DNA of 49,395 nucleotides, counting the filler, from Bipalium vagum (Eukaryota), in the NCBI GenBank assembly GCA_037834085.1. It is 2 parts of 2 records of this genome, joined end to end, with 100 filler letters (N's around TTAATTAATTAA, not from the genome) between each part and the next. Parts side by side here need not be neighbours in the genome. Positions count along the whole stretch, not along the records: positions 1 to 26,886 come from JBBMKC010120937.1; 1 more part is not named here. The stretch is one strand, 5' to 3'. The translations under genes and the position numbers were made by a program. Positions 1,049 through 41,539 of this stretch are shown here, one piece after another. Positions within the stretch are counted from its first letter, which is position 1, and each line of letters starts with the position of its first letter. The notes beneath the pieces are model-generated. The model had not been told where the DNA came from. It saw nothing but the letters and a program-made list of their open reading frames with translations, and searched no databases.

Positions 1049-4000
1049 TAATAATAACTCTAACTATAAATAAATCGAAAAATGATTAAGCTGAGTTAAT
1101 TAAAAATCATGATTATGAGATTGAAAACTTAAATAACACAAATGATTACTCCATCTCCATAATTTATAATTCTGATGCCTTAATAAAACTTAATAATGAT
1201 GATATTAACAATTTCCAACTTGAGTTATCAATTAAAGAACTAAATAATAATTATTTTAATAAAACAAATTATAATCAATAAATCTCCAATTTAAAAAAAC
1301 AACTATTGATTATATCTCCATAAATAATTCACATAATGATCAGCTCAATTTAATTACTAATTCAAACTTTAAAATTGTTTTATCCAATACTAATGAAGAT
1401 AATGATACCACATTTCTGAATAATGCTTTGAATCCTGTTGATAATAATATTAATGTCCTGACCCTCTCAGCCAAAATACAAAATTCAAAGAAGTCAATAG
1501 CAAGGGGAAATGTCCAATTAAATCCTTCACTATTTATCACACAAATCCTTACCTAATAAATCAATTCATCCACATACTTTAGACGAAATTGCCATCTATG
1601 ACTCCGAAAATGATGAAACTGAACCAGATGAAAGTGAATTGAATTCTTTATCTGCTACCATTAATTTTAATCCTTCACTTGAACTGTTTATCGAAATATA
1701 ACCTGTATAGGGGAGGTAGTCCAAAAGATACTCTCTACAGTGCTATCTTCCTTGATAAGATAAAATTCAACAAATTTAAACAACCATATCTAATTCTTTC
1801 TTCTCCAATTTCCTCATTCATTAATAAAAATAATATTAGGGTAAATGAGTTTCCAGTATTTCTTTGCTTCTGTGGTCTAGTGTTTACTAAACATTTATTC
1901 TATGCTCACATACCAACTACAACAAATCTCTTCAACAATTCCATCCATACAAAATCTTATTGATGTTCTTGTATCGAAAGCGACATTAAAAGCAACTGAT
2001 TCTCTGGGCTGGCCATTGAAGTTTACATACAAATCAAAACCCTTGATTCTGCTCAAATCATCTTTATAAGATTTGGTCCTTCGATGATCATCTCCCGAAG
2101 CCTTCATGAACAATTCTATAAACTATTTCCCATTTCCCAACTTACGGATTGAGAAATCTTTTATGGCAAATTCACTGAAATAGTCAATGAAGGGTTCTTG
2201 CCGATAAATAGACTCCAATAATTTCTTTTAGACACCTCTTCTCCAAATTTAACCCACAATCAATTTTTGGATAACCCATTAAATAAAATAGTCCCCTCAA
2301 TATTTTATATTGATAATGAACTTTTTCTTCTCCCTTTTTTATTGAAAATCTCCTAATCCAAAATACAAATACAGACTATGGACTGTTTATATGCAGATAC
2401 AAAATAGATTATTTTATTGAAAATCGACATTTCACGACTCCTGTCAAGCCAAATATGTGAACTGAAATTAAAAATAGTTTAAATAATAATTAATTTAAAA
2501 ATTATTCATAATAAAAATAATTATAATAATGATAAAAATCGTAATTCAAAATCTGACTGCATCCACTTTTAACTGTAACATTAAACCATATTGATTATTA
2601 AAATCAATATATTGCTGAACTATTGAATATTGGACGTAGAGCAATTAATAATTTATATTAACATTTATCTATTCGCTTTCGAATCTTGATTGGTCTAAAT
2701 ATTAATAAAACAATTAATGATTTTAGGATCTTCAATGTTGTACGTGGACTTAAAATGGTGAATGGTGAGGATTTAAACTTTAGACATTTTAGTGACTGAT
2801 TTAATTTCTGCTGTAGAGAAAAGAGCGAAATTAGATAACCCAAATAAAATAAAAACAACGCTTCAATGGTTAAGTGATAGGATAAAAACCAAATTATCTG
2901 TAAATAGAACTTGGTAGACTAACATTAGAGAATCAATCAGAGCATTAAGAGAAAATTTTAAGATTGATTGCGATTTTCTTCATATTGACAGTGGAATCAA
3001 CTTAAAATGTAAAATTCCAATTAATGATACTGACTAAAAATCCTATATTATAGAGGAAAATATATAATGCTTTAAGTTACTTTAATAGTTGAAAATCGCA
3101 TTCAGTAAAAAGAGTTTTAGTCCACTGTTTTAGCTTAAATCTAAAATCATGAATTCAATCTTTAAAAGTAAATCATTTCTCTGTATGCATCTCGAGAGGT
3201 GTTTCTTTTTGAAATGAACCATTGATTGAAGGTTTTGTTTTGGAAAGTTCCTGTCTATTTTCGTTTAAGTTCTGAATTTCCGAGTACTTTATGTTTTCCA
3301 ATCTAGAAAATCTTATAACCAGTTTCTGTAGATCCTCGTCTTTTAATTCTTGGTAGGACGCTTCCTTATTACCTTTTAATCAGAGTTAAAGTCTAAGCAG
3401 ACTAGTTTTTAGTCTCGATATTTGACATTAATTTATTTCATAAAATTGGGTATTTTGTTCTCTTCTCTGTTGAGCATCCTAATTATCCTGGTTCCTCTCT
3501 CTGTAGAATTTTTTGTTAGAAGGGCGATAACCAATTCCGGATAAGTAGTAAGACTGAGTTTGGAAATATTGGCTGGTAATGGTATATAACTGGTATTGCT
3601 TAGATTCAAATCTATAAATTTAGATTAAGTAAAATGTGCCAAGTTTTTAGTTATTCTTCTATCACCTTTTATTTCAGAGAGCCGTTGGTTTTTATCAAAT
3701 CTTTTATTATTTACAAAGATCACCTGATATCTCTTTTCTTTAAAGAGCACTTCTTCAGTCCATAAATCAAACATCTTTAAACGTTGTTATTTTCTCTTTG
3801 ACTAAAATGGAAAATACTTTAGTTAGTGTTCTTGTGCTGACTTTTTCATAATAAAGTGGTTTCTGTATTAAAAAGCGGTTCGAATTAATTCACATTCATG
3901 ACAGTTAGAAAATAAGCAAAAATTTATTTATAAAAAACGAGCCTCTTTTGAGGTGGATGTGAACCTCTGTTTTGCATCATCGTCCTCTTGGGTTTTCTGT

Positions 4001-4255
4001 TTTTTTGATTTGGATTAATTTTTCATCTCCACTTGTTTTCTAATATTCCCTGAAAAATGATTAAATGAGAGATGAAAGCAAAGAAGTAAGAAGGAAAGAG
4101 GAGTTAGATAGTAAGTATAATATTGGATAATAGGGGTTACCAATATAATAAGCGTAGTTACTTATAGAGAAACAAATGAAATAAAGAGACTTACATACAA
4201 AAGAAATGATGGGAAGCAAGACATAGTTATTAATAATCATTAAATTAGTTTAATT

Positions 4256-4900
4256 TTAGATTTCCAGTGATTCAAAATTATTTCTATTTTCATTGTAAAC
4301 GTGGTTTGAGTATAAATTATATGATTCTTGAATTGCTTTTAAAATTAATAGATTAGATAAAGTATTAATGTGCTTTTTATTTAGACATATTTTCTCAAGT
4401 GCTAAGTTGTTCTTTGGGTCCCATGAACCTAGGCAACCGATAACGATTATATCTAATGACATCTGGTATCTGATGGTTCGATTTAATTGTAAACTTAAAT
4501 ACTTATATTTCTTGTTATTTTTATCTCTCAAGTTTTTTTAAAGTTAATTTTTATATCTTATAACACTTTCATGTCGAGAAAGTACATCTTTTTGTTAATA
4601 TTATCTCGAATAATTATATCTGATCTAAGTCTTGTGGTTTTTCTAAGTTCGATAGGTTTCGATTCTAGTCTATAATAAATACAATATGTCGTAAGCAATT
4701 TCCACAAAACTTCTAATACATTGTTGAGTTTTTTAATTTTACATAAAAGAAATGATTTACAGGGATTCAATATGTGAACCTGAGTTTCTACGTGTTTTGC
4801 GATTTCCGCATTTTAATTGGTGCTTAGGTTTATTTCTTTTTGGTTTATAATATAATGAAAGATTATTTTTTTGGCTTTAATGAGAAAGTGTCATTGTTTA
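4256..4900 (-). mobile_element. 3' end relic of an RLE-type non-LTR retrotransposon (NeSL/R2/Utopia-like)
   Basis: Frameshifted pieces give a CCHC-like ETQVHILNPC, LRSDIII..KKMYFLDMKV (PD..D nuclease), KKYK and IVIGCLGSWDPKN motifs; no reverse transcriptase recognisable. Confidence 0.8.
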
Positions 4901-8779: not shown

Positions 8780-9761
8780 TTAATTTAGATTTTAATAATT
8801 TTAATTTTAATAATTTTTTTATAATTATATATTATTTTTAAATTTTAATTAGTGCTTTTCATTTCATGTATTTTAAATGTCTTTGTTTTTAAATTAATAA
8901 ATTAATTTTATGTTTTGTTAAGAAATTATTTATTTTTATTGATAATACTTTTAGAATTGTTAAAATCTTAAAAATACTCTATTTTTTTTTAATTAATTTT
9001 TTTATGAAAAAATTTAGTTTTTCATTTATTTTATTTTTGACAAAATTTTAATTTTTTTTTGAAAAATAATTTTTAATTTTAAATAATTTTACTTAATGTT
9101 TCTTTTAAAAATTATTCAAAATGCAAAAAGAAAGAGAGAGAGAGGAAAGCAAAGAATGAAAGAGACTCACGAATTCTTCCTTCTCGATGGTCTTCATACA
9201 AGCGGAGCATCTATTGGCACACGGATAAAGAACCAGTCAAAAATATAAGAAAACAGAAAGATAAAATCGATACTTTCTGTGGCCGTCAAGATTTTCGCCG
9301 ATTTTCGATTCATGGAAGACGTCCAGTGGGAACAGGTGATGATAGGATCTGGCGAGATGGGGAGCCGAGACGAGGATGAGACCGCAGTTGTTGCATTCGA
9401 TTGGCACTTCGCAGTATGCGGAATCACAGCGCGGGCACAAGAACATTTGGGTCACGTCGGCAAAGTGGTGGTCGAAGTGACTGAACAAGGGACAAATGAA
9501 TCAAGATGTCGCGACAAAGAGAGGAAGAGAGGATTGTAAAATAAGTCTCTCTTACCAATTGCAAAGTTTGAACAATCGATCGAATTTTTTGTAACTGGGA
9601 AAACCTGATCGATGAAAAATTATTAAAACATTTATCGATCGATCATTGATCATAACAGAAATGAAAAAATATTATTATTGATATTTTAAAATATTAATTT
9701 CGAATGAATAAAATATCAATACCAACCCATGTGAATTAAGCAGGCTTCGTTTTCTTTCTAA

Positions 9762-9840
<79 letters not shown>

Positions 9841-12800
9841 GATAATAATAGATAATAAAAGAAAGAAAACCAACCAAGCTTGGGGGAGGGAGCACCAAAT
9901 TCTGAAAGCTGTACTTTAAATCGATTTCATCGAGAATTACTTGGAATTTTCCTGTAAATATCGATAGATGATCATTAAAAAAGGAAAAATAATAAAACCT
10001 TTAGTAACTTTAGCCAATTTTTTGAAAATGTACACTTCTGCCGACAACAAAATGGCTGAACAGCGAATGTTACTCTGTTGCACAGACTAAAACAATTTCA
10101 TTTTAGCAAAAATCAATAAAAAATTTCAAAAAAATTAACAATTATAAAAGTATTTATATATATGAACACGTTTTATATTGAAAAATAATAGAAAATCAAT
10201 AAAACTTAACCAATAAAATTCGTGATCAATATTTCAATTAAAATAATATTACAGGGTTATGTATAACATAAACAGGGTTACATTTATGTCTTTCTATATG
10301 CACTATTACACAAGCCTATATGTACTTAAAATTTTTAAAAATCAATATATATAAAAATTAGGATGCTAGTTTAATTATATCAATCAATGTCAAGGAAAGC
10401 AAGAAAAACCATAACAGTTGAATATGATCTTGCAGTTTAGATGTAAAATATTCAGAAAATATTCTTTAAGGTATATAATATCTACACTGGAGATCAGTAT
10501 TGGTGCTTGACGAAATATTCTTTCTTAACGAGAAAATAGTGAATCATTCCTTCCTGCAATAGAAAAGTATAAAAAAAAACTATAGCAGAAAAAACTTTAT
10601 CCAATATAATTGAACAAACTATATTCAAAAAATTTTCCTGCAATAATTCTGTCATCCAAAAGGGAATTCAAGAAAAAGTGTTGATGCTACAAATACGGTA
10701 TTTTCACAGTCAAATATTTCCAGGAAAATTAAAAAGATTAAAGTTACAAGAAAGAGGCTTTCCTTGGTTCCAAATGAAACGAACACCCAGATACGATTCG
10801 TGAACGTTCTATCTATGCTACTGATATTGCAAGGTTTGCCGATGAATTTTTAATATTTCTAGATGAAACAGATTTTAATGAGCATACGAATCGATAATAT
10901 GGTTGTTCACCTGTGAACACAAATTCCTGCTAATCGAAATATTGGATCTTTTACTTTTTTTCCTCCAAAACTTATTTTTTTCCGTTTTCCCCCCAAAAAA
11001 TTATCTCTTCCGTTTTTTCCCCTTAATAAAATTCTCTTCCGGATTTTTCCCACAAAAAAATCAATATTAAACCAATAAATAATAAGATAATAAAACAAAA
11101 AAACATCAATAACTAATCTTTTTTTAGATTCAACAATTGTTCTAATCATCATTGAAAACAATCTTTCTATATCCATTCTTTCTGATACAATCCGATCTTA
11201 TCTCCCAAGATACATTTTTAAATTTTTATTTAACTTTTACCCAATAAGATTCTATTTTTTGTGTATTCGCGTGTTTTTGGGTCTACAAAATATTTATAAT
11301 ATAATGAATGGTTGACTTTCAAATGACGAAATCAAATTTTTTCAAATCATTATAAGCTTTCCATTGATCACTTATAATAATTGTACCCTCTCGGCACACA
11401 TTTTTTTACTATTGGTAGTAGAGTGTCTGCTTCGTGTTCAGTTGCACATCTCGATGATATTTATGTTTGTATATTGGTATGTATATAATGCAAATTATTT
11501 GTCTATTTATAATGTAACCAAATAAAATTCTCTTCAGTTTTTTCCCAATTGACAAAAAAGATAAAAGATCCGAAATATTAACAGAAGCCTGGTTTGTGTT
11601 ATTGGAGCTGAAAGAGAAATCGCTCAGCAATACAAAACTGGATCATATTAATCTAATATGTTTAGTGAGTTTCTTAATAATTGTCTTGCTCCATGTTTTT
11701 TAAGGAATCCAAATAGAATTCTTATCATTAATAATGCAAGAATTCAGAAGATTAATGAAGCGACTTTAAAACGAAACAATATTACTTATGAGTTTCTGGT
11801 TTCATATTCACATGAACTCAACCTAATCGAAGAATTTTTCTCAATGTTGAAATCAAGGTTCCATTCTCTTAAAAGTCAAAGACCACAGCTGTGTATTGAA
11901 GAAACCTAAGTATTGTATTCTCAATAGATGACCATTTCAGTGACCAATGTAGAGGTTTTTCTAGAAATATGAGGCGATTAGTTGCTAAAGCAAGAATGAA
12001 TGAACCATTTGTTTAATAATAAGTTGCATTTTTAAATTAAATAAAATAAAACTGTTAATTTTTTTTTGAAAAAAGTACATATAGAAATACATAACCCAGT
12101 GATATAAAACCAATAAATCGTAACGATATTGATAAAAAATTAATAAAAAAAAAATCAATAAATCATAATTTCAAAAAATCATTGAAATAATAATAATTTG
12201 TTTTGCAAAATCGATTTTGTAATAATTATGTAAAAAAAGAATAAAATTTTAATTTTGTACTAAATAAAAAAAACCAGTTTTCCCACCGTTATGACGTCGT
12301 CAATGTTGTCGCGGTCACAGGATGTGAGACTGGCAAGCAACAAGATCACTTCTCGTGTGGCATATGACGGAATATGTCTGAAATGAAAACCCGGTCGAAA
12401 AAGAGTGGAAGAAAGCAGGTTTCAATGATGATAAAATTGCTACTAAGCAGTCCCTACTTCAAAATTGACTCGGAGCAGCGTAAAATGTTCTCCAGAGATA
12501 GTTCGCCTTCGCACTTGTCTTCTGACAAGCTCTGTAGGGCGTCAATATGTTTCTTAGGGTTGCCTGGAAAAGTAAAAATACCTGTATTACAAAGATAATG
12601 GATAAATACAAGGTTATTTACCACCGAGACTGGTTAATTTCTGCACGGTGCCGTTTTTCACCGTAAATATTCCCAGTTGGCTGATTGGATTCTGGTCAAA
12701 ATAATTCTCTACAAATGTCTTGGCGTTCTACATATAATGTTATCGTTAAAGTATAACAACGAAACGTTCACCTTTATAGAAAATGCTAATCGTGTTGGTT

Positions 12801-13085
12801 TCAAGTCCAAAATCTTCATGGCATCAGTCATGTCTATGAACAACAAGGTGTACCGCATCTTAAATAGTTTATTTTAACTGGTATTGAGACATAAATCCGT
12901 ATTCTTATTCTCACCATTCCCAATCTTATATTGTTCGGTCGTTTCTGGCTTTTACGCTTTCTTTCCGATTCCAGTTTTTGAGCCAAATAAAATAACGACT
13001 CTTCTTCCTCAATGATGGCAAAATTGTTTTCGTTTTCATGTTGCCAAGTGTAACCTTGAGACTCGTCTATATCACCACCAATCAT
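7939..13085 (-). CDS. GTF2H2: General transcription factor IIH subunit 2 (p44/Ssl1), 12 exons, 393 aa
   Basis: Exons 13085-12915, 12858-12772, 12727-12622, 12563-12458, 12377-12287, 10086-9999, 9951-9875, 9757-9727, 9604-9556, 9480-9274, 9210-9171, 8067-7939; all GT-AG and phase-compatible (1182 nt). Motifs [60 protein letters not shown] and C-terminal CGHC..CADCD..H..H.CPNC. Confidence 0.97.
8722..8777. repeat. (ATT)n microsatellite
   Basis: Perfect trinucleotide run in the last GTF2H2 intron. Confidence 0.95.
9762..9837. repeat. (AAT)n microsatellite
   Basis: Perfect run filling most of a 117-bp GTF2H2 intron. Confidence 0.95.
10252..12100 (+). mobile_element. Decayed IS630/Tc1-like DDE transposon in GTF2H2 intron 5
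   Basis: Ends TA-CAGGGTTATGTAT / ATACATAACCCAG; ATG at 10387; motifs [15 protein letters not shown] and [16 protein letters not shown]; stops and frameshifts; interrupted by a Merlin insertion. Confidence 0.85.
10944..11571 (-). mobile_element. Merlin (IS1595/IS1016-like) internal-deletion derivative
   Basis: TIRs GGATCTTTTA..TAAAAGATCC, perfect 8-bp TSD GAAATATT (10936-10943 and 11572-11579), tandem subterminal repeats, relic KVNHS..FVDPKT..IESYW. Confidence 0.85.
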
Positions 13086-14053: not shown

Positions 14054-15655
14054 TTACTGATTGTTCGTTAATGGAAAGAGTAGGGCCTGCCTAAGCATAA
14101 AGAGTTTTTTCACAATAATCTTCAAAAAAGTCATGGATGCTTCCAGATCTTCCAAATCATTCTTCCTAAAAATCAAAATATTGATTTCTAACAGTATCTT
14201 TTCGCGGACCCTGATCATATCCGTTTTCAGTGTGTGGGCCATGGCATACCGATTCTCTAAACTATTACTCTGGATCAAATAATGTATTTTGTATAATTGC
14301 CTAATCTTTTTCAAGAAGTCACTGTAACCTGAAGAGATAAGGGATGTAAATTGATAAAATTGTTCAATCAGCTGGATTTCCCCAGATTGGATATCATTAT
14401 CCAAGCAATACGTCGTGTCAATTGATCTTTGGAAATTCAACTCTTCAAAGAAGAAACATATTTCCTCCAGCTTTAACTGAAGGACCATTCTATTCCTATA
14501 AAGGTCTACTAAGGTTTTCTCTTTTAACATTGTCCCAAACTGGAGTCTTAAAAAATCATCTAACTTTTGAGCTGACTCGATCAATTTGATGATTATGTTA
14601 TACTGTTCAGCAAATATATTATAAGACCTGGGTTGAATGTCATTCTGGAGCTGCATCACTTCCCTATGAAAAGGACAGAATACCCTAAATAAGTGAAAAC
14701 TTTCAATACAACCTTTACAAATTTTGTGTTGACAGTTTGGAAGAGGTGAGGTACATATATTTTCTACTTCCAATCTCAAATGGGTGTCACAGATGATGCA
14801 CCATTCCACTGAATTATTAAAAATTTCCAGGTACTGCTTATGACCATGTTCTATGAATTCCAGCATGACTGCCTTCGAATATATCAAACAACTTTCAATA
14901 GTCTTGGTGAGATTGGCAAAAATCTTCATGTGTTTCGACATTTCAAGTAGGTCTCGCAAGTAGAAAATTATGGTGACATTCTTTTTTTGCATAAAGTATT
15001 TGAAGACTTTGTTTATGTACAAAAATTTTCTGTTTGCACGTTTCAGAAGCTCAAACAATGTTTTCAGCCTTTGTAAAATTGAAAAGAAATTCGAAAGTAT
15101 TGTTTGTTCTAAAACTTTTTTGTTAAACTTTTCCGCTTGTCTGAGAACTATTTTGATATCATTTTCAAAGTTTTCGTAAGACTCAGTATGAGACGTGGCA
15201 GCCGGCAAAAACCTTAAGATGAAATCTTTCAGATAGCATAATGCTTTCTCAAAATCACCTTGACTTTGTCCTTTACATTTTTTCACAAAATATTTTTCAT
15301 CAAATTTCGACAAGAGAGAAAGTTTCGGTTCCAAGATCTTGAATCTTTTCACCATTTTGGTCAATATCATCATGTGCTGCTGAATGGCAGTCTCAAAAAA
15401 GATTGTAAGTTTCTTGGAAAGCTTTGGATACAGGAAGTATGGAATTGACAACGTTTCATTGCTTTGGTCTCCAACTAGGACAATTTCGTGAATCACACCG
15501 CGATCTAAGGGACAGGTATGTTGTAGCCGTAGCCACCTTTCCAAACACCTCGAGCAAAAAGTGTGTCTACATTTTTTGGCCATGACCTGGTTATCTCTTT
15601 CCACTTCCTCCAGACAAACAGGACATTCGATCTTTACCACATTTTCTTGTTCCAT
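14054..15655 (-). CDS. Intronless 533-aa protein with two RING-finger-like domains; putative E3 ubiquitin ligase
   Basis: Uninterrupted ORF; C-x2-C-x14-C-x-H-x2-C-x2-C-x10-C-x2-D at aa 11-51 and C-x2-C-x18-C-x-H-x2-C-x2-C-x10-C-x2-H at aa 286-330. Confidence 0.88.
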   Translation of the reverse strand: MEQENVVKIECPVCLEEVERDNQVMAKKCRHTFCSRCLERWLRLQHTCPLDRGVIHEIVLVGDQSNETLSIPYFLYPKLSKKLTIFFETAIQQHMMILTKMVKRFKILEPKLSLLSKFDEKYFVKKCKGQSQGDFEKALCYLKDFILRFLPAATSHTESYENFENDIKIVLRQAEKFNKKVLEQTILSNFFSILQRLKTLFELLKRANRKFLYINKVFKYFMQKKNVTIIFYLRDLLEMSKHMKIFANLTKTIESCLIYSKAVMLEFIEHGHKQYLEIFNNSVEWCIICDTHLRLEVENICTSPLPNCQHKICKGCIESFHLFRVFCPFHREVMQLQNDIQPRSYNIFAEQYNIIIKLIESAQKLDDFLRLQFGTMLKEKTLVDLYRNRMVLQLKLEEICFFFEELNFQRSIDTTYCLDNDIQSGEIQLIEQFYQFTSLISSGYSDFLKKIRQLYKIHYLIQSNSLENRYAMAHTLKTDMIRVREKILLEINILIFRKNDLEDLEASMTFLKIIVKKLFMLRQALLFPLTNNQ

Positions 15656-15939
15656 CGCTCAATTTTATTGATTTAAAATGTAAAAAAATATTTTTAAACA
15701 ATTTTTTGACATTTATGAAAACGGTTCTATCCGTAATTTTTTGTATAAATCGACTAAGAGAATTTATTTTTAAAATAAATAAATATTTTGGATTATGTTT
15801 CTTTACCGAAATGACTATCACGTCTCTTTTTTGTCCTATCTGTTACATCAAGTTTTTTTGACCGATCTCAATTTTTTCCTATCAGGTAATTTATAATAAT
15901 ATTAATGATTTTTCATAAATGCGATAATCGTGGCACGAT

Positions 15940-16290
15940 ATTCAAGGAATGTATTGATTGTGTTTCATGGCACTTAAACACAAATAACTGCATACATTAA
16001 AATGGATATTTTTCTATTAGAAGAAAATCCTTTTTAGAGAAATTCAAAATTTGGTCATTTATTGCATTTATGGACCTAGGGCAGATCGCAAAAGTCAGTT
16101 AATGAAGACACAGGCGTTTCAAAATCTTTCGTTATTAATTACTGTGCAGAAGTAATGAAAAATGTGAGATTTTTCTTGAAAAATCCAATAAAAATTGGCG
16201 AGCTCATATCCGTACCACTTTTGGATTTTTGGTATGGTTGACGACTCCAAGAATGCAAACATATTTTTGAAGTTATTAAAAAATTACGTT
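15940..16290 (+). mobile_element. Merlin-type transposase relic
   Basis: Fragments SIRRKSFLEKFK, KNPIKIG and WIFGMVD..IFFEV, typical of ISXO2/Merlin transposases. Confidence 0.6.
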
Positions 16291-16299
16291 TTTTCTGTA

Positions 16300-16499
16300 A
16301 TGAAATATTTTTGAATTATCTTAGCTCTGTGGCAAGGTACTCCATCATACATGAACTGAAATCGTTCACGACCAGAAAACCAATAATTTTTTGAGCCCGT
16401 AATTCATTCTGGAGCACTTGCAGGTACTGTTGCGAATTCATGTCTCCATACCATTGTTCTTAAAATAATACTTGAGTCTATTTCAATGGCCAGGTACTA
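16300..16499 (-). mobile_element. Tc1-like family A, copy 2 (internally deleted)
   Basis: Same terminal sequence joined almost directly to GDMNSQQYLQVL..RFQFMYDGVPCHRAK, homologous to 24450-24560. Confidence 0.8.
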
Positions 16500-16770
16500 C
16501 AATTCAATATTTTTCTCGTCATGCAGATTATAGAGAAGAGTTTCCAAAATTTTAATTGCTTATGTTTACCATCACGGCCACATTTAATGTTTCCGTTGTC
16601 TTTTAGAGATTATTTAATGGTCATTAGAGAAATTTAAAGTAATCTGTGAAGAACGATTTTGTCAGTTGATATTTAGTTTTGAAACAAGAAAAATTCAAAT
16701 GATGTCCAAGAGAAAAAAGGAAATTTTAAATTTTAAAAATGTAATAGAAAATAACAATAACTCAACATAT

Positions 16771-17262
16771 TTATTTATTGTCTTTAGTATTTTGGTTTCC
16801 TTCTTTCACTCCCAATGATGATCTTCTGAACCAATTCGAAGAGTCATCCAGTTTCATTGATGATCCCTCACTGCTCAAGCTCTGAATGGAATCATGTTTT
16901 GGATTACTTGATTTATCACTGTATCCTTGAAAGGAATATCGATAAGGGGTTTTTAAATACTGTGCACAGCCATATTCAGAAGGATCGAAATAGTTGACAA
17001 ATGGATCAGAGACAACACAGGAATTCAGCATATTTTCAAATTCTATCCAAGAACTTGACGACAAAGATTTGTTCCACAAGTCTAGGTACTCGGTGTCGCT
17101 ATCATTATCGGAAACGGAGGAATTTCCGCTCTGGTGAAGATTTGTTGAATTTTCATGAAGGCAGTTTTCGTCTTCCTGTTTATAAATATACAAAGTAATT
17201 CGATCTGAGCTCCCAATCATAAACATGTTATTAAGTAAAAATATTGAAAATGCAACTGACAA
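16771..17262 (-). CDS. Ser/Asp-rich ORF of unknown function, possibly the 3' part of a disrupted gene
   Basis: 163-codon open frame in AT-rich DNA; start uncertain; coding-like sequence with stops continues upstream to about 17450. Confidence 0.4.
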   Translation of the reverse strand: MSVAFSIFLLNNMFMIGSSDRITLYIYKQEDENCLHENSTNLHQSGNSSVSDNDSDTEYLDLWNKSLSSSSWIEFENMLNSCVVSDPFVNYFDPSEYGCAQYLKTPYRYSFQGYSDKSSNPKHDSIQSLSSEGSSMKLDDSSNWFRRSSLGVKEGNQNTKDNK

Positions 17263-19107
17263 TTTAAGGTTAATTTTGAATAAAGTTCAAGATCATCTTT
17301 AAATTTTGTTGGTAATCCTTCATTATCAATCACAGCTTGATGACTTCATGAATTAGTTTGGATAAGAATGGTTAACAAATCTGCTGGCAAAAATTTTTCA
17401 GTCTATTTTGTTAAACCAAAATTTATAACTGGGGCCGGATAGAACAATAAATATCTTTGTTTTACTGTTATCAATAAACATTAAGTTTTAAATTTAGAAG
17501 CTTCCTAGCATTGACCAGCTTGATAATACATTTTCGTAAGAAAAGGATTATTTCTCACTTTTTATCACTATCATTAATGGGAAAGAATAACTCAATCTAA
17601 CTTTTCATGAAATAAAATTAATCACTTGAATGTACATATTATATAACCAAGGAAACCATACAGATATTATAAACTTTATTGATGGTGTTATTCTCAATCA
17701 AGAGAATTTGAAATGCCCGCGTCTCTTTTGGTTTACATTTCATATTTTTTAGTTTGTTTAACATTACTAATTTAATGCAAAAATGTTTTCAAAATAAAAT
17801 TTTTTTTAATATAAGAATAATATTTAATTAATATTAATAATATTTGATTAAAAGATTTTAAAGATATTTTCAAAGGAGCTGCCGAAAATGATTGAAATAA
17901 TGTCACAAGAAATTTGTAACTTCTAAAGAAAATTAATTTGCACATTATAATAAATGATAACCTTTAAAAATGTGGAATTTTGACAAAAATTTCTGTAGAA
18001 TTATTTTTCAAAGACTTGATAAAATTAAAACCTTTTCTATTTGTTTCTCAAATGGGATATTGAAAAAGTTTCATAAAAATTTTGAATTGTAAAATCTTTG
18101 ATGCAAAATTAAATAAAAATAAAACACTTAGTTTAACTAAAAAAAATTATTTCCTTCAAATTTTACTGTACAACAGTTGCTAATGCCTAATAATGCCTAT
18201 ACATAAATCTTAAGTTAACATTTTGAATGTCATTTGACTTAGATATGATAGAATTCGAATTCGTTTTAAATCATCAATTAAATCAATAATAGCAGAAAAT
18301 CTGTAAATAAAAGTAAATCTTAAGTTAATTTTTATAAGTTTACTTTCTGATTAATAAGATTTAATAAAAACTATTACACGTTAAAGGTCATAATTGACTT
18401 AAATAAACAATCAAATGACCAAAATTTTGTTTATAAAATGAAAAAAATCTGTTGAATTTGTTCAATAAAATTAAAATTAATAAATTTGAAAAAATGAAAC
18501 AATTATTTACATTTTGAAAATTAATTTCCTCTGAATTTGTTACATTAATGTGAACATTGGTCGTATTCTGTGCCATTATCGCTTCATAGTGGGCCTGGAA
18601 ATATTTTTCACGTTATTTATAAATAATAAAACCCACCTTTGCGAATGCGATTTTCCTCATAAAAATCCTCACAGAATTTCTGCTGTTGGAATTTTTGTCA
18701 TTTGACAATTTGTAAATGTTTGAAAAGCAGTTGAACTGGTTTAGTTTTGCCAAATAAAAGCAGGAAACGTTATCTGAACGATGAGAAAGTCATTTTGTTT
18801 TTTTACTTCATTTCAGTACTGAGGACAGGTTGGTCTACTTATAAACGAAACAATGGCACAGGTATCCCATAAAAAGAAATTGGAACAAAGGTTTACCAAA
18901 TTATTATATATTAAACTTTGACATAATGTAATAATCGTATGTCGCATAGTACAACGAATCATGGTAATTATTTTTGTTAAAAAAGTTCACAATAATAAAA
19001 GTCACTTGTATTGGGAGTATGCAAGATCAGATTCACGATATTCTGAGACACTGCTTAAAATCGATAAAATATAATGTTCTTGCTCATTGCAAGTGTTGCA
19101 GTTAATA

Positions 19108-20353
19108 CAGGGTGTCATGTAAGTCCCCGAGGAAAGTAAACTTAGATATTTCTTAAACTGACTGATATATTTAATCGCTTGCTCTATAAAATTAAAGAAA
19201 AATCTTTTAATTTTTATTTCATATTTCAAAAATATTTACAAAAATTATTCGAAATGACCACCATTAACTGATATACATAAGATCATCCTTTTTACAATAT
19301 TTAAAAATACACTATTCAAAGTTTCTGTGGTAACACTTTTTATTTCTTCGGGGATTTTTGTTTTCAAATCCTCAATATTTTTGATTTCAGATTTGTGTAT
19401 CGTATTCTTTAAATGACTCCATAAATAGATGTCAAGAGGAGTTAAATTAAAAGAGCAGCCCATCAAATTGTACCACCTGTTCGGAAAATGAGTGTCAAGA
19501 TACCGTCGTACATTTGTTGAAAAATGCGCAGGAGCTCCATCTTCCACACTTCAAACATAAAATAGTCTTGAAGCATTGATAGATAATTTTGGCCATTAAC
19601 AGTCTCAACTTCAAAGAAATACTGACCGATAATTTTATTTTTTGACAAAGCACACCAAACATTTACCTTCTGGGATTTTCTAGCAGTTTCATAATGAACA
19701 TGAGGATTACTTTCTGACCAATATCTGACGTTATGCCTATTTACTAATTCTTTTAGGTAAAACTTTGCTTCATCTGAAAAGAAATTATTTTCCTTAATAT
19801 CCACATTTTCTAACATTGGGACCAGGATTTTGCACATTCAAACTATATCTTGCAAATCCTCTTCATGTAATTCCTTCGTGAAATGGACCTTAAAAGGTTT
19901 CAATGATAACTGTTCTCTCATAATTCGGTGGGTTGTTGTTCGCGAAATGGAGCAGGTGGTTGTAACAGAGCGAACACTGCATTGCGGGTCACTTTCAATA
20001 ACTTTACTCATTTTCTGAACTCCATTTTCAGTGATCAGCCTTGGTCTTCCAGAATATTCACGATCTTTCACCGAGACAATCTCACAAAAACTCACTTAGA
20101 CAACTTTTTTTTGGTGAGGTTTTCCCAAATTTAATTTCCGTTTAACAACAAAAATTGAGTTGAATTTGGCCATTAGAAGTACAATTTTGATTCTTAACTT
20201 TGAATCTAACTAAATTAACTAAATCTAATTTTAAAATATTAAAACAAAACTTAGACTTACATAATTTAATATTATATAAATAGAATTGTCAATCGATTGA
20301 ATTTAATGAAATATATTTAAGTTTACTTTCTACGGGGATTATGGGACACCCTG
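19108..20353 (-). mobile_element. Near full-length rosa/DD41D-like Tc1/mariner element, frameshifted
   Basis: Imperfect TIRs CAGGGTGTC..AAAGTAAACTTA with TA on both sides; FFSDEAKF, VNRHNVRYWS, KVNVWCAL..IIG.YFF, DGAPAH..FPNRW and LTPLDIYLW motifs over three frames. Confidence 0.9.
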
Positions 20354-21154
20354 TAGTAAAACAAAAATCCGGCCTAATGAGATTTCAGCAGAAATATGAT
20401 TGGTCTATTGCACAACCTAAATAATTGTACTTTTATTTTTCTGAGATTACTCTTAATGACTTTTATTAAGATTATGTTTTGTATTATTCAAGACGCCCTA
20501 GTTTGACCTTGGAGTGCTAAACTGGAAGAGAACAGATGAATGACTGGATATGTCGCTCCCAAAGCTGGGGAATGTTATATAAATTGCGATTTTTCAATTT
20601 TAAGGTTGATAGTTGATTATGAGTGATGCCAATGATTATGCTCAAACTCTGAGTTCGTTAGTTAGCTAATGGGCCACAGAAAGTATTTGTGTAACTTACC
20701 GACCAACCTGTGATGAAGTCAACTCAAGGCCACATTGATTCTAGCTTGGGTTTTGGTTTTTATTTTATTGATGGTATTACGGTGTTTGAGAACTGCAGGT
20801 TGTGTCATCCAGAGAATCAAACGTATTGTTTTTTGCCTGGAGACATTTTGAGTCATTTCGTGATAACTTTGGTGTAAATCGTAGCACAATTAAATGACGA
20901 ACACAAATGAAAACTGTTTGGAGTCAGATTTTTATATTAACAAATATAAATATGAATTAGGTATAATTGCGCAGAATTCACCAAATTTTGTAATTTATGT
21001 TTGGTCTTTTTGTATTTTTAGCAAATTTTATTGGAAAACGAAACAAAATTCGAACAGAAATTAAATAACAAATTTGTCTACTTTTCAATCAAAAGAAAAA
21101 TATCAATCACCTTTTTACTATTTTAATTCTATTAGAAAGATAAACACGACCTAC

Positions 21155-21299
21155 CTATGGCCATGACTGGGTCGTAAATCACCAGTTGGTCGATGGTTAT
21201 GGGCTGATCGATGAGCTGTAGGCGACACTGCAGATTCTTCTTAATGGGCTTGGCGAAAATGATCAGATCAGTGAAAAGGAGAACTTTCACCGAGAGGGT
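21155..21299 (-). CDS. Isolated internal exon encoding part of a RhoGEF-type PH domain (PLEKHG5/6/7-like)
   Basis: TTTGTAG acceptor and GTAGGT donor, 145 nt, TLSVKVLLFTDLIIFAKPIKKNLQCRLQLIDQPITIDQLVIYDP; LFTDL..K..KK and P..ID.L pattern; high GC relative to flanks. Confidence 0.7.
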
Positions 21300-22229
21300 C
21301 TACAAAAATGACAGTCCATCATTTCTATCATTTTGATCTCATCAATATTTAAAATTAACAGTTAACTGACATCATCATCTCTCTTTTCTGATACCATTTC
21401 GCTTAAATATATTCTATTACCTGAACATTGAGAACGTTTATAAAACTTATTTTACTTTTACTTCACTTTACTCTAAAAATGCTGTATTAAAAGTGGAATT
21501 TGAGAACGTGGAAGAGTTGAACACATTTTTGAAGAACGGAAACTCTTACCGAAATCATAGGTTAATTAAACCCTTTGATTATGGAAAGGTTGTTAAAAAG
21601 ACTTGTTAATAAGGCTAATCGGTAAGTGGAATATTTAATTTAATAAATTTTTTATTTATTACATGTCACAATTATCCAAAAACTAAAAAAGAAATATGAA
21701 ACTATGAATGTTATTAACAACAAGGATCTTGATGTCAATAATTTTTATTATTTTCTCTGCTCAAAATTCGAATATTCAAACAAATTTAAACATCAAACTA
21801 TGAAATTTCCAAATCTTTATTTAAATTTATTGATTTTAATTAATTATAAAATACAATTATTTAATTATTGATTAAATTAAAACTGTATATTATAAAATTG
21901 ATGATATAAACTGGTCGAATTAAAAGTGAACCAGTAAAAGAAAAAAAGTTAAAATTGTATTATTTAATGAAAGATAAATGATAAGCAAATTATGTTTTTT
22001 GCAATAAGACAACCAAACACTTTTCTGTTGATTCTGTTTCTGTAGGTTATTGAAAAAATATTTTTTTTGAAAAAAATTGATTTTTAAATTATTTCTTCTT
22101 TTGTTGAAAATTTCCTTTGTCATTTGGCTTAATTTTTATGAAAAATATCAGTGCTAGTAATTCATACTCATATTAGAAAGCTTTATAAACCTTGTTCTTT
22201 GTTTTATCACTTAAAGGTATGAAAAAATG

Positions 22230-22480
22230 CTTGGTCAGTACAAATTCGACTTTATCGGAAATCAATATTTTATCGATAATTGTTGAAATATTTCGTGATC
22301 TATTCAAGTTTTTAAATTTTAAGCTTTAGTGTTGGGTTTAATGTGGATTTTCATTCAGGCAACAAAATTAAGCATTAAATAAAACAAAAGTCAAAAGAAA
22401 ATCGTTCCAAAATTTCAGCATTTGCAAAAACTGGATATTCTGAAAGAAAAATAGTCAATAAAATGTTGACCGACTCTGTT
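22230..22480 (+). mobile_element. Tc1-like N-terminal helix-turn-helix relic
   Basis: SKENRSKISAFAKTGYSERKIVNKM. Confidence 0.45.
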
Positions 22481-22554
22481 GGAATTTTATAAATTTAAAA
22501 TAATTTTTAAAAAAATCATAAGAGTAAGTCAGATAAGTTAAATCAAACAAAATA

Positions 22555-23704
22555 TAGGGTACGTTAGGTATTTGGGGACATAAGTTTAATTTTTTTAAAA
22601 TGATTTCTTAAATATACCAATGAAATTTGTTTAACTGAATCAATAGAATAAACAATAATGACAGTAAAACAAATCACTCAAATAATAAAGCAAAATGCTG
22701 TTTTAGTGGCATTGAAAGCTGATCATTCCAATTTAGAAATCGCACGATTTTTAAAAGTCGCAAGATCATCATCATAATATAGTAAGCCACGACCTTCCGA
22801 TAATTGGATAGTGTCAGAAACAGCAAAGTAAGAGGAAACGCTGTGATATGATGAGAACAAATGATTTTTTTCTAGGAAATTAAGTTGACTGTTGATGGCA
22901 ACCGCAGAAATTCCATGAGGTTTTTTGCCAAAAATTTCAAGGTCTCAGAGTGACCATTCTAAAATGTTGGTCATGTGTTAAAGAAAGGTCAATTTCTCTA
23001 AAAGCAAATCGTTTAAGTAAATTAAAAGTGCTCCTAACGAAACTCAAATCTTCAGCAACACAATATCTGATTTAGTTTTTCTCAGATCAAAAAACCTTTG
23101 ACCAAAATCACAAAATTAACAGAAGAAATGATTGATGGTTATCTAAAGACTCTTCTGAAGTCCCAATTGTTATGCAAAAAAATTTCTGGCATCAATCATG
23201 ATTTAGGGTTCTAAGTGCAGATCTTAGAGTGAATTCTATTGTTTACATTGAGGTCCTGAAAACAGTTGTGAAGTCCTAGATTGATTCAATGCGAAATAGA
23301 AGGCTTTATGTTTCCCAACAAAATTCTGCTCCATCACACCAGGCTCTGCTAACTTGTGAATGGATAGCTGAGAATATCCATGACCAGTTTTCTCCTGATA
23401 TTTGGTCTCCCAGCTCTCTAGTCCTAAATCAATTGGAACACTAAGTGTGGGGCGTTATTGAGAAGTAACATTTCCACAATACTTTACATTCCTTGGAAGT
23501 ATTCATACTGTTATTGTCCAATATGAGCCAGGACAACCTGGTTAAGGCAAGCAGGCGTTCGGAAGCAATGATCCAGTTAATTGTGGTTTTTGCATAAAAT
23601 TATGTAAAACATCATTACATTTTTGGTCAATAAAGCTATAACTTTTTATTATATTTCTGTGTTCCTTGAGATATCAGTATGTTCTCAAATACCTTCGCAT
23701 CCTG
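22555..23704 (+). mobile_element. Decayed maT/DD37D-like element
   Basis: Degenerate TIRs (TAGGGTACGTTAGGTATTTGGGGACAT vs CAGGATGCGAAGGTATTTGAGAACAT), TA flanks; FFSDQKTF, NRRND.WL, QQNSAPSH and WSPSSLVLNQLEH.VW motifs. Confidence 0.85.
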
Positions 23705-24057
23705 TATAACGAAGAATTTTCATTTCCTAAAGTACTTCCTAAAATGCCACAAAAATGTAGGAAAACCAAAATTGCGGACTTATTCCTCAACCATAAAAAA
23801 CAGAAAATTTAACGATTTCAAACTTTTCGAATGTTCTTCTCTTATCGATTTATTTCTAGAAACGGTTTTCGTCGATTTGTATGACTGATATCTGAATTAA
23901 TGCCTTATTGGAATCGAGATCCAAAAGCGTTCATTATTACACAGGATCCCCTTTTCATTTACGATAACGAATCAGTTTTTTTTATTCAACAAAGAAATGC
24001 AATCAGAAATTATTAATAGGTCGACTGTTGTCCAATAATAAACTTCCAATCTAAATA

Positions 24058-24562
24058 CAGTATCTGGCCATTGGAATAGACTCAAGTATTATTTTATATT
24101 ATTGCTCTTCGCCCAATCATAAAGCATAAGTTAACACCGGCCATGACAAAGAACAAACTAGCTTGGGGACTGAAATACAAATACTATGGAGACATATTTT
24201 GGTCAAAAATATAAATAAAAATTAATTTCTACAAAACGGGTTTCATTAAATCGGTTTATTTTCTGACGTCAGTTTTGCTTATCGGGTGAAAGCTCAGTCG
24301 GGCTTAACAATGACCGTATTACATTTTTTAGCCGTTTATCAAAGGAAAGATAATTACCTGAATGTGTAAGCCAAAGGGTTAAGCATCTGGTCCAAGTAAT
24401 GATATGGTCAATTATATCTGCGAAAGGTGTTTGGAAACTTTATTTTGTGGATGGCAACATGAATTCGTAGTAGTATCTGCAAGTGCTCCACAATAAATTA
24501 CAGCCTCAATTACAAATTTGGTTTCCAGGTCGTGAACGATTTTAGTTCATGCATAATGGAGT
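24058..24562 (+). mobile_element. Tc1-like family A, copy 3
   Basis: TA-CAGTATCTGGCCATTGGAATAGACTC end, then KHKLTPAM..LAWG and VKHLVQVMIWSIISAKG..LYFVDGNMNS. Confidence 0.82.
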
Positions 24563-27298: not shown

Positions 27299-33098
<5,800 letters not shown>

Positions 33099-36860: not shown

Positions 36861-39800
36861 TCACATTTCAAACAACCGATTAAAATGTATTGTGCCTTTT
36901 ACGTCTCCGGTAATAATCTGGAATGCAAAAAAATGAGAAAAAATCCACAAATATTTCATTACCGTATTATTATAGAACGTTAGCGATAAAATCTCTCCCG
37001 AACCGTTGTTGATCGAATTAATCGGGGTTTTGAAAATCTGAGATCCCTGAATAGATTACAATTACTTTACCATCGTTTACATATTGACAAACCTTCAATT
37101 TGTATAACGATACAACCCCTTTACTGGTACCCACGATTGCATAGTTCCTTGTCAGACTCAGTGCATTGATGGAGTCAAAATGGTTGAGGGAAACTGTGTT
37201 TTTCATTTTCTAATACAAAATCCAATGTAAACTCGTTAAAATTCTAATCCAAATATTTTCATACAATTTCATAATTTCGAACAATCAACAATAATTAAAT
37301 AAACCAATTTTCGATTGATTTAAAAATTTGAAATCAATAAAATGAATATTTAATTGTAATTTTAAATTCCATCTTTCTCTGAATGGTCACAGAAATCATT
37401 CAATTTTCTCACAAAAAAAATTAAAACAAGTTTTCCAATTTTATCAAAAAATCTTTATCATGATTAACGATTAAAAAATCCTCACTTACAACGTAATGAA
37501 TAAAATGTATGTAATTATTGGTATAAGCCAATAATCTCTGTTTCGAGAGAATAAAAAACCCTTTCGGCACATCAACATGTGCCAACGGAGTGATGTTGCG
37601 AATCTTTATCAAGGTTTTAGCATCCCAAATGTTATATTCACCGTTCTAGAAAAACCGTTGATAAAATACATTACTTTTCTCCACCATCCATTACTTGTGA
37701 TCCGATAAAAAGGAGATTTCTGTCAATTTCTTTCGTGGCTGCTATCGCAGATACTGAAGAAGCTGAAACAGTAATATCACACATTTCTCGCTCCTTCTGC
37801 AAAGAATAGATTAAAACGTGACCATGTGCCGTTCCAAAATATATGTTATCCAGATAGTCACAAATACAGTTTATAGGTTGATCATAATCAACTCTTTTTA
37901 AGATCACACCAGTCTGGAAATATAGTAAAACCAATAAAATTAAGTATAAAACCCAATTCCAATCGCCTACATCAATGTTATAGATAAATAAGCTTTTATC
38001 CTCTCCTCCGCTGATCAACTTCTTCACGCCTGAAGGATACGCTGTTGCCAAAATACAATTGATTTTATTCTGAGCACCGATGTAGTTCATGATACATTCG
38101 TGGGTCTTCAAATGATATTGTCTCAGAAGACCACCTAACCCAGCAACAAACAATCGATTACTGAATACCGTAATGTCCGTGATGGCATCACCGACCGTCA
38201 AAGGGTTCAATATTGGCTCAATAGCGTTGAATAGACCATTGTCAGCATCAGGTTTAACGGATTTCAATGATTCCTCGTCAAAATCAAGCTTTAAGGATTT
38301 ATCGATCGACTCGTTTTTATAATCTGAAATGAAAAACGAAAATCGATATTTGTCTATTATAAATATTATGGACTCAGGGCAATTATAATTAAAATGTTTT
38401 GAAAATCGATAAAAATCCCACCTTGCAATTTGTTATCGTTTGGTAGCATGTCAAGGAAACTTGACGAAGATGTGTTATCGTTACTGACAGACGACAGAGC
38501 AGGTCGACTGTGCGAATCCGCAGAAAAAATTGATTCTGGACGATTTACAGACACCGCATCATTTGTTTTCTTGATCATCTTTTGCGGTGTTTCTGAGTCA
38601 TCGTCCGATTCTGATGAACTGGATTCCGGATATTTTCTCTTACAACCGACCACAACTGCAGATTTCTTCGGTGAACTCTGAACAAGTGTTTCGGAAATTA
38701 TCTCAACGTCACTTGAAGAATCTGAACAGATGTTTTCAATTGGCAATGATTCTGAAACGTTTTGCCTATTAAAAAATGAATAATCAACTGATTTTAATGC
38801 GATGGAATAAATAGATAATAATCTAATCTATAAAAACCAGAATCTCTGGTGAGGGTTTTAGATTGGATACGAGAACGACCAATCAAAGCACGCGACCATT
38901 ATCAATTGATTCATTTTATTCTATAAAATATATTATTAAGACTTACACACATGTCGATTCGATTTCGGTTATTTTATCGTCAAAACTGCTTTCAGAGAGT
39001 GAAGATTTTTTTTTATCCGACACACCTTCACATATTCCTCTACATACATTCTTAATCTTAGTAACGAGGTCTTTCTTTTCAATGTTCATTTCCTCCAATA
39101 ACTGAACTTGCTTTTCAAGCTCTTTTTTCAAATCTTCTACGATTTTACTTTGGTCAACGAGTTTCATCTCGATCAACGCCATATCGATGTGGTACTGTTG
39201 AAGATTTTGCAAGTTTGGGTTGACTATAAAATTTGATGTCGTGGTAATGGATTTCATGTCCTCGGTCATAGTTTTCTGAATCTTTTCGTCAATAACTGAT
39301 TCTGGGAACGGGTTATCACCTTCGATTCTTTCATTAACAGTTTCATTTTGAACATTTTGAGTTTGATCTATAGAGTTGAATAAGGTTAAAGATTTGTTTT
39401 TAATCTGTCTTTCAGTTTCTTTCGCAACAGCTCTTTTTGATTCACCACCTGAATTAAGAACGATTGATTATGAAATTATAATTAATAATCATTGAAGATC
39501 AGAAGGCTTAATTATATTACCAGGAGAATTAGTATCATTTGAAAAAAACCAGTTTGGTTTGTCCTTTTTGGAAGACTGGAGATTATTGGTTTCATTGTTT
39601 ACTTTCTTTGATTTCTTTTTTGTTTTTTCATTTTCTACGGATTGAGGATCGCTTGTTATACTGATTTTTGACTTGGATTTCTTCTTTTTAACATTTTCAT
39701 TGTCTGGTGATTGAAGATCAGCAGCAACATCTGCATTTGACTTTGATTTTTTCCTCCTCGACTTTTCTAATATGAAAATATTTTCTATATGAAATTCATA

Positions 39801-40090
39801 TCTGATTAATAATAATACTTGAACTGTCTGGGTTCAATATAATTTCTTGTGTACATGTTTTTGGCGATGATGCAGTTTCAATAGAATCGTTGTTTGTGAA
39901 AAACCACGTTGGCATATCATTATTTTTATTCTTTTGACTTTTTGATATTGGACTTTTTTTGTCTTTAAAAACTATTATAAGATATTATAAGAAAATAATA
40001 TTGATTACCATCAAACTCTAAACATTTGTTATTTTCTGTCTAAATAACAAGTTATGCAATTTTAATTTAAATAAATCTACCTTTTCTTCT
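36861..40090 (-). CDS. ZNF106-like WD40-repeat protein, 5' end unresolved
   Basis: Phase-compatible exons 40090-40081, 40039-40009, 39962-39819, 39766-39521, 39448-38947, 38765-38422, 38323-37971, 37913-37695, 37645-37490, then three more ending ..IITGDVKGTIHFNRLFEM* at 36861. Lys/Ser-rich region, coiled coil, and WD40 repeats resembling ZNF106 (KINCILAT, SVSAIAATKEIDRNLLFIGS). Confidence 0.85.
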
Positions 40091-40599: not shown

Positions 40600-41539
40600 A
40601 TGGGATATAAGAAATGTTAGATAAATGTCTATTTTGGGATGCTCCACAATATGATACGAAAGCTGCAACAAAATGGAACATTGAGAAACTTAAGTAAAAG
40701 TGGTCGTAGACCGAAAAATACACAAAGATCAGAAAGATCACTTATTCGTATGTCAAAGAAAAATCCCCAGAAAACAGCACGTGATCTTTTTATCAATTGG
40801 AAAACAAGCCAAACTAACTCACTTAGTACTGTGAAGTGCATTCTGAGAAAGTATAGCTCTCCGGACGAATTGCAGCAAAAAAAACCATATTTAAACGAGC
40901 GATATATAAAAAATCGTTTACAATGGTGCAGAGATTATAGCAAACTACTTCCTTCATTTTGGAATGAGGTGATTTTTTCTGATGAAAGTCGCATAGAACT
41001 GTTCTCTAAAAGAAGACAATACGTCCACAGACCGCAAGGATCAAGTTATAGTCCAAAATATACCACGAAAGCGGTGAAATTCGGAGGTAATAGTATCATG
41101 GTTTAGGGTGTAATTAAAGAAGATGGCACCAGAGTTCTGGTAAGATCGGACATTCTGGACGATTGGACGAATTCTGATGCCTACAAGGATGTATTGAAGA
41201 AAGGATTGCTCCAAATATATGATGCAGAGAATATATTTCAACAAGATAGAACTCCATGCACAAATCAAATAGGTGTCTTCTTTTTTGGACTTGAAAAAAA
41301 TCTGCGTACTCAGTGATTGGCCGGCTCAATCGCCAGATTTGAATATAATTGAGCCGTTGTGGACTGACCTAAAAGCCAGAGTTCATAGCTGTAGGCCGAC
41401 AAATATATAGGCACTGTGGAAGAATTTGGAGGATCAGTGGGCAATGATTCCAACATCTAAAATTAAAAATCTATATGAAAACATGCCAAGAAGGATGCAA
41501 GAGGTCATTAAAAATAAAGGCATAAATACAAGGTACTAA
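40600..41539 (+). mobile_element. Tc1-like DD34E transposase, disrupted
   Basis: SGRRPK, RLQWC, WNEVIFSDESR, VKFGGNSIMV*G, FQQD and DWPAQSPDLNIIEPLW motifs; few lesions. Confidence 0.92.

What the first reader, a model, noticed from the sequence alone, without database searches (positions are those of the whole stretch)
14054..15655. Intact intronless protein built as [variant RING + helical region] x2
Seen: a 1.6-kb uninterrupted ORF among intron-rich genes and decayed TEs. RING1 ends CPLD (C3HC3D) and has Trp in LERW; RING2 ends CPFH (His as eighth ligand) and has IESF at the equivalent position. Each is followed by about 200-230 aa of Leu/Ile/Phe/Lys-rich sequence. Known: C3HC3D RINGs occur in TRAF6/RNF41-type ligases; RBR ligases need an IBR between RINGs, which is not evident here. 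Inference: an internally duplicated, single-chain pseudo-dimeric E3 ligase of retrocopy, viral or TE-cargo origin. I do not recognise this architecture.
Basis: partly seen in the sequence, partly recalled or inferred. Interest (0 to 1): 0.75.

Follow-up and report, generated by a model that had tools for sequence, protein, structure and literature searches.

The report
Twin RING-and-bundle ubiquitin ligase family
An intact, intron-free gene in an animal genome encodes two RING zinc fingers, each followed by a predicted four-helix bundle; it belongs to an unnamed, fast-changing protein family and likely works as a ubiquitin-tagging enzyme whose variable bundles would pick its targets.

Summary
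The 533-codon ORF and both RING fingers are real. It has relatives: 13 other full-length proteins (504-605 aa, 13-21% identical to it) share the two-RING layout, all unnamed, from Logan or ENA assemblies. A model from a 21-row alignment (pLDDT 66.5) shows each RING followed by a four-helix bundle, and both bundles match the same common fold. RING1 scores best against PHRF1-type RINGs; RING2 scores best against the family's own RING1. Internal duplication is therefore likely, but the bundles show no sequence similarity, in a test whose positive control also failed. RINGs are conserved (34% and 40% identity) while bundles are not (15%, 14%). No family member was found in viral or JGI metagenome contigs. 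Best reading: an old host family of single-chain RING E3 ligases with fast-evolving adaptor bundles. E3 activity, RING-RING contact, expression, substrates and host lineage are untested. I found no description in 7 literature searches; single-chain tandem RING ligases are known (PRT1).

The parts
14054..15655 (-). Single-exon ORF, 533 aa (P0001), two units of RING plus helical bundle
15503..15625 (-). RING1 (aa 11-51), C3HC3D, PHRF1-type; W41 and R52 present; followed by a predicted beta-hairpin (aa 57-70)
   Evidence: Pfam; profile ranking; model pLDDT about 90
14855..15445 (-). Bundle 1 (aa 71-267): four predicted long helices 71-117, 131-176, 179-223, 227-267
14666..14800 (-). RING2 (aa 286-330), His as eighth ligand in this member, Asp in most members; I288, F320, P328, F329, R331
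14063..14626 (-). Bundle 2 (aa 344-531): four predicted long helices 344-377, 382-413, 424-463, 466-531; the least conserved part

Best explanation
This is an intact single-exon host gene of an old, unnamed, fast-evolving family whose product has two RING fingers, each followed by a predicted four-helix bundle, and it likely works as a single-chain RING E3 ubiquitin ligase that likely arose by duplication of one RING-plus-bundle unit. Shown: the ORF, both ligand sets, the family, conserved RINGs against variable helical regions. Predicted: the two bundles. Inferred steps: (1) RING1, likely borrowed from PHRF1, binds an E2~ubiquitin conjugate and is the main catalytic finger (Arg after the last ligand in 17 of 19 RING1s; its role as 'linchpin' is recalled knowledge); (2) RING2 keeps the hydrophobic E2-type surface but mostly lacks that Arg (2 of 19, this protein being one of the two), so it likely supports RING1 or is a weaker second site, as RING2 does in plant PRT1 (about 0.35 that the two RINGs touch); (3) the bundles likely carry target recognition and diverge quickly; targets unknown.
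Confidence: 0.6

Rival explanations
1. Two independent, both active ligase modules on one chain: the RINGs do not touch and each unit binds its own E2 and target (a fused pair of monomeric RING-plus-bundle genes).
For: RING2 is at least as conserved as RING1 (0.40 vs 0.34), keeps an aromatic residue at the Trp position in 19 of 19 and Ile before the second Cys in 17 of 19; this protein has Arg after both RINGs. A 251-aa protein with one RING and a helical tail ends at the same residue on two contigs (P0018, P0153) and may be a free single unit. Model pTM is only 0.52.
Against: Arg after RING2 is missing in 17 of 19 members. P0018's tail shows no homology to bundle 1 (-6.1 bits). The two-unit layout is kept in 14 very divergent proteins, which suggests coupling.
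Confidence: 0.17
2. Not a unit duplication: a second RING was added to a helical protein separately (for example from another PHRF1-type gene), and the two bundles are unrelated.
For: No bundle-to-bundle similarity in any test. PHRF1-type RINGs score close behind family RING1s for the RING2 profile (median 34.9 vs 37.6). PHRF1-like proteins with two RINGs exist among the hits (P0015, P0030, P0111).
Against: Similar unit lengths in all 14, same predicted topology, 10 of 12 best RING2 hits are family RING1s, and the negative tests lack power.
Confidence: 0.11
3. A viral or transposon cargo gene that entered the genome.
For: Single exon among split genes. Nearest Atlas clusters by features are giant-virus RING proteins (0.92) and the best viral structural matches are ICP0 RINGs (E 3.9e-4). 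A high-copy repeat lies just upstream.
Against: Those matches cover the RING only (61-87 columns for most top rows). No relative in IMG/VR by protein query or by the strict RING2 motif (0 hits); all 47 loci from the looser motif (44 metagenome, 3 viral) scored at most 38.8 bits against the family profile, against 241-543 for the members that built it. Neighbours are host genes; GC3 0.42 lies within the 0.26-0.66 of 12 other coding stretches; no long inverted repeats bracket the gene.
Confidence: 0.06
4. A non-catalytic scaffold: the RINGs bind zinc and partners but transfer no ubiquitin.
For: Non-Cys eighth ligands; Trp missing from RING1 in one subfamily (9 of 19); Lys or a gap at the eighth position in 3 of 19 RING2s.
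Against: Asp-type RINGs of TRAF6 and PHRF1 are active ligases (PMC3166285 and PMC11886831 passages); RING1 of this protein has V13, W41, P49 and R52 in the E2-contact positions (positions recalled).
Confidence: 0.06

Closest known systems
PHRF1 / SCAF11-type RING proteins (P0111 named PHRF1 of Schistosoma; PMC11886831 passages)
   Same: C3HC3D RING with Trp, CP[LIV]DR ending and a following beta-strand; best non-family scores for the RING1 profile (median 60.4 bits for 7 PHD-bearing RINGs vs 38.2 for 168 Cys RINGs).
   Different: No PHD, no SCAF11-like C-terminal domain, no long disordered region; helical bundles and a second RING 275 aa downstream instead.
Arabidopsis PRT1, single-chain tandem RING E3 (PMC12370974, passages)
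   Same: A canonical RING1 and a non-canonical RING2 in one chain; in PRT1 they form an intramolecular dimer needed for full activity, which is the working model here.
   Different: PRT1 links its RINGs by about 80 disordered residues and recognises substrates with a ZZ domain; here a predicted four-helix bundle of about 200 aa separates them and a second bundle follows. No homology outside the RING was tested or is claimed.
TRAF6 / RNF41 C3HC3D RING ligases
   Same: Asp as eighth ligand.
   Different: No TRAF zinc fingers or MATH domain; TRAF6 matches the family profile over the RING only (36 bits).
Aphid IAPs with two RINGs (PMC7768685, passages)
   Same: A lineage-specific gain of a second RING in an invertebrate ligase family.
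   Different: They carry BIR domains; none is found here.
Alphaherpesvirus ICP0 RING
   Same: Best single-RING match in the PDB sequence search (1chc, 49 bits) and in the viral structure library.
   Different: Cys as eighth ligand, one RING, match limited to the RING.
Schmidtea mediterranea RING transcripts whose best human hit is PHRF1 (PMC8807557, Table S1 rows)
   Same: 18 of 393 listed transcripts hit human PHRF1, 17 of them at 35-61 bits, the size of a RING-only match: a possible expansion of the same kind.
   Different: The table gives no sequences, so membership is untested, and the host of this window is not shown to be a planarian.

Membership tests
RING-HC finger (C3HC3D variant) | Eight cross-brace zinc ligands, RING1 | tested here: met
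   C11, C14, C29, H31, C34, C37, C48, D51; four Pfam RING models above cut-off and one at it; model pLDDT about 90
RING-HC finger (C3HC3D variant) | Eight cross-brace zinc ligands, RING2 | tested here: met
   Seven canonical ligands plus H330; RING1-RING2 profile match probability 98.5; two of three RING2-only fragments hit Pfam RING models at E<=0.05. Pfam lists no separate RING stretch for this protein's RING2
RING E3 ubiquitin ligase | E2~ubiquitin binding and ubiquitin transfer | not testable with these tools
   Only the expected surface residues can be seen
RBR ligases | IBR domain between RING1 and RING2 | tested here: not met
   aa 71-267 is four long helices with two Cys; the weak IBR hits (E 5.7e-5 and 0.012, below cut-off) lie on the RINGs themselves
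PHRF1/SCAF11 | PHRF1-type RING | tested here: met
   8 of the 12 best non-family hits of the RING1 profile are in PHD-bearing proteins; the trees do not resolve the link
PHRF1/SCAF11 | PHD finger and SCAF11-like C-terminal domain | tested here: not met
   Neither among the 16 Pfam families at E<=1; both are found in the control P0015
TRAF family | TRAF zinc fingers and MATH domain | tested here: not met
   Absent from the Pfam list; the model has no beta-sandwich
TRIM family | B-box after the RING | tested here: not met
   Absent from the Pfam list; no Cys/His cluster between the RINGs
PRT1-like single-chain RING dimer | Two RINGs, one non-canonical, in one chain | tested here: met
PRT1-like single-chain RING dimer | Intramolecular RING1-RING2 contact needed for activity | not testable with these tools
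PRT1-like single-chain RING dimer | ZZ domain | tested here: not met
   Absent from the Pfam list
Any described protein family for the helical regions | Significant family or fold match specific to the bundles | tested here: inconclusive
   No non-RING Pfam family shared by more than one member among the 25 of 32 families shown; NCBIfam only a RING-length rad18 hit far below cut-off; fold matches are generic bundles

The most novel reading that the evidence does not exclude
An undescribed animal family of self-contained pseudo-heterodimeric E3 ligases: a PHRF1-derived RING was joined to a four-helix bundle, the unit was duplicated, RING2 became the built-in activating partner of RING1, and the two bundles now serve as hypervariable receptors, an expanded intracellular surveillance repertoire that tags pathogen or selfish-element proteins for destruction, possibly matching the PHRF1-like RING expansion listed for planarians.
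Probability: 0.15. Interest if true: 0.78.

Novelty: new variant of a known kind. Interest (0 to 1): 0.5.

Why it matters
The parts are known kinds (RING finger, four-helix bundle) and a single-chain RING pair has a precedent in plant PRT1, but this layout was not found in Pfam, NCBIfam, the PDB, the viral structure library, the Atlas clusters or 7 literature searches. It gives a natural test of how tandem RINGs divide labour: members differ in the Trp of RING1 and in the last ligand and following Arg of RING2. If the bundles prove to be positively selected receptors, it would be a new ubiquitin-based recognition repertoire in an under-studied animal group; if the host is a flatworm, RNAi makes that testable.

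Full report
Observation. The ORF at 14054-15655 on the minus strand runs from ATG to stop for 533 codons. Shuffles of its DNA give at most 152 stop-free codons in 300 tries. RING1 (aa 11-51) has Asp as eighth ligand, Trp41 and Arg52, and passes Pfam cut-offs. RING2 (aa 286-330) has His as eighth ligand and Phe320 in the Trp position; Pfam does not list it as a separate RING in this protein, but family profiles of the two RINGs match at probability 98.5.

Setting. The window is mostly 17-37% GC. On the minus strand the gene lies about 970 nt upstream of a split TFIIH p44 gene (Ssl1 hit; p44 match E 5e-20; first exon assigned by recall) and downstream of a high-copy repeat and a 151-aa ORF without Pfam hits. 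A split SRPK gene lies further on and is closer to human SRPK1 than to yeast Sky1, so the host is likely an animal. Features of that SRPK remind me of flatworms; this is recall and was not tested. Contigs of run X1 over the gene have depth 24.8 and 26.7, close to five of the six other long pieces (21.6-23.9; one at 12.7), which fits one near-identical copy; X1 may be the source of the assembly. GC3 is 0.42, within the range of 12 other coding stretches whose limits I set by eye.

A family. The search of 50%-identity representatives gave 459 hits; among the 150 shown, most match one RING, but a set extends beyond it or has a second RING at the same distance. A second search with the RING2 region added 6 proteins. 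In all, 14 full-length proteins including this one (504-605 aa) have RING1 near the start, RING2 246-298 aa later and 236-343 aa from RING2 to the end. The 13 relatives are 13-21% identical to this protein, carry no name, and come from Logan or ENA assemblies. They fall into two subfamilies, with and without Trp in RING1 (support 98). For 7 of 14 records the contig is less than 360 nt longer than the coding sequence, so these are either nearly intron-free DNA or spliced transcripts; which, I could not tell.

Constraint. Mean pairwise identity is 0.34 for RING1, 0.40 for RING2, 0.15 for bundle 1 and 0.14 for bundle 2 (91 pairs). Bundle 1 is recognisably homologous within each subfamily (this protein 17.7 bits against a best shuffle of 2.9; 9 of 9 in the second subfamily at 45-143 bits), bundle 2 much less (this protein 0.8 bits). 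Across subfamilies neither bundle is detectable. So zinc fingers are held while the helical regions change fast. This is protein-level evidence of selection on the RINGs; dN/dS was not computed.

Origin. The RING1 profile ranks PHRF1-type RINGs first among 207 non-family RINGs (8 of the best 12 in PHD-bearing proteins), one of the group being named PHRF1. The RING2 profile ranks family RING1s first (10 of the best 12). Asp is the commonest eighth ligand of RING2 (11 of 19; His 4, Lys 2, Glu 1, gap 1). RING2s form one group in both trees (support 83 and 68), and a single clade of both RINGs is not rejected (p-AU 0.58); the trees are otherwise unresolved and do not group the RING1s. With similar unit lengths and the same predicted topology, one old duplication is the simplest account. 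Against it, the bundles share no detectable sequence, but the positive control fails too. No member was found in viral contigs or JGI metagenomes: protein query blank, strict motif 0 hits, 47 loose-motif loci all far below family scores. Viral look-alikes match the RING only.

Mechanism. RING ligases act by holding E2~ubiquitin in a closed state (PMC7752041, passages). RING1 keeps Arg after the last ligand in 17 of 19 members; RING2 in 2 of 19, though it keeps an aromatic residue at the Trp position in 19 of 19. I infer RING1 is the main catalytic finger and RING2 a supporting partner or weaker site, as in PRT1, where RING1 is essential and the intramolecular dimer raises activity about tenfold (PMC12370974, passages). 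This protein is one of the two with Arg after RING2, so both fingers may work here. The bundles are the only other parts and are the likely target-binding surfaces. Contact between the RINGs could not be tested. None of these steps is shown.

Literature. Seven full-text searches returned no description of this layout; subscription papers are mostly outside the library. Seen: PMC12370974, PMC3166285, PMC7768685, PMC7752041 and PMC11886831 as passages; PMC8807557 as passages, section 15 and supplement rows, where 18 of 393 planarian RING/U-box transcripts have human PHRF1 as best hit. No sequences are given in the rows seen, so the link is a lead. All other papers were seen as search listings only.

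Verdict. A real gene and a real, apparently undescribed family with a twice-repeated RING-plus-bundle build. It is a new variant of a known kind: the chemistry is probably that of ordinary RING ligases and a single-chain RING pair has precedent. Interest 0.5; higher if the bundles prove to be a diversifying receptor set.

Noticed in passing
window 9270-13082 (-): Split TFIIH p44 (Ssl1) gene with transposon remnants in its introns: a DDE_3 piece at 11652-11906 (+), E 1.1e-7, and a broken piece near 11230-11480 (-) that resembles a Merlin-type transposase (recalled).
   Followed up: partly
window 15880-16500: High-copy repeat directly upstream of the gene (summed depth about 3700-4300 in run X1); minus-strand translation with stops resembles a decayed Tc1/mariner transposase (recalled); no Pfam hit for the open piece.
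   Followed up: partly
window 19102-20359: Mariner-like element with imperfect terminal inverted repeats (arms 19102-19149 and 20313-20359), broken transposase, the highest copy depth in the stretch laid.
   Followed up: no
window 16771-17226 (-): Ser-rich 151-aa ORF with no Pfam hit; may be the last exon of the split gene at about 21100-24400, which looks like a RhoGEF by recall only.
   Followed up: no
window 27299-29919 (+): Split SRPK gene.
   Followed up: partly
window 36861-39984 (-): Split WD40-repeat gene with a long low-complexity N-terminal part (weak propeller hits); Tc1 transposase remnant at 40621-41106 (+).
   Followed up: no
P0018 / P0153 (Logan): A 251-aa protein with one Asp-type RING and a helical tail, same end on two contigs: a possible free single unit, but its tail shows no homology to bundle 1.
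   Followed up: partly
P0015, P0030, P0111, P0136: PHRF1-like proteins with two RINGs before the PHD finger (insect P0015 with two Asp-type RINGs; Schistosoma P0111 with a different first RING): RING doubling recurs in this RING lineage.
   Followed up: no
window 15810-15861 (+): A short frame with one CPIC motif on the opposite strand, about 150 nt upstream of the start; ends in a stop after a T run; probably chance.
   Followed up: no
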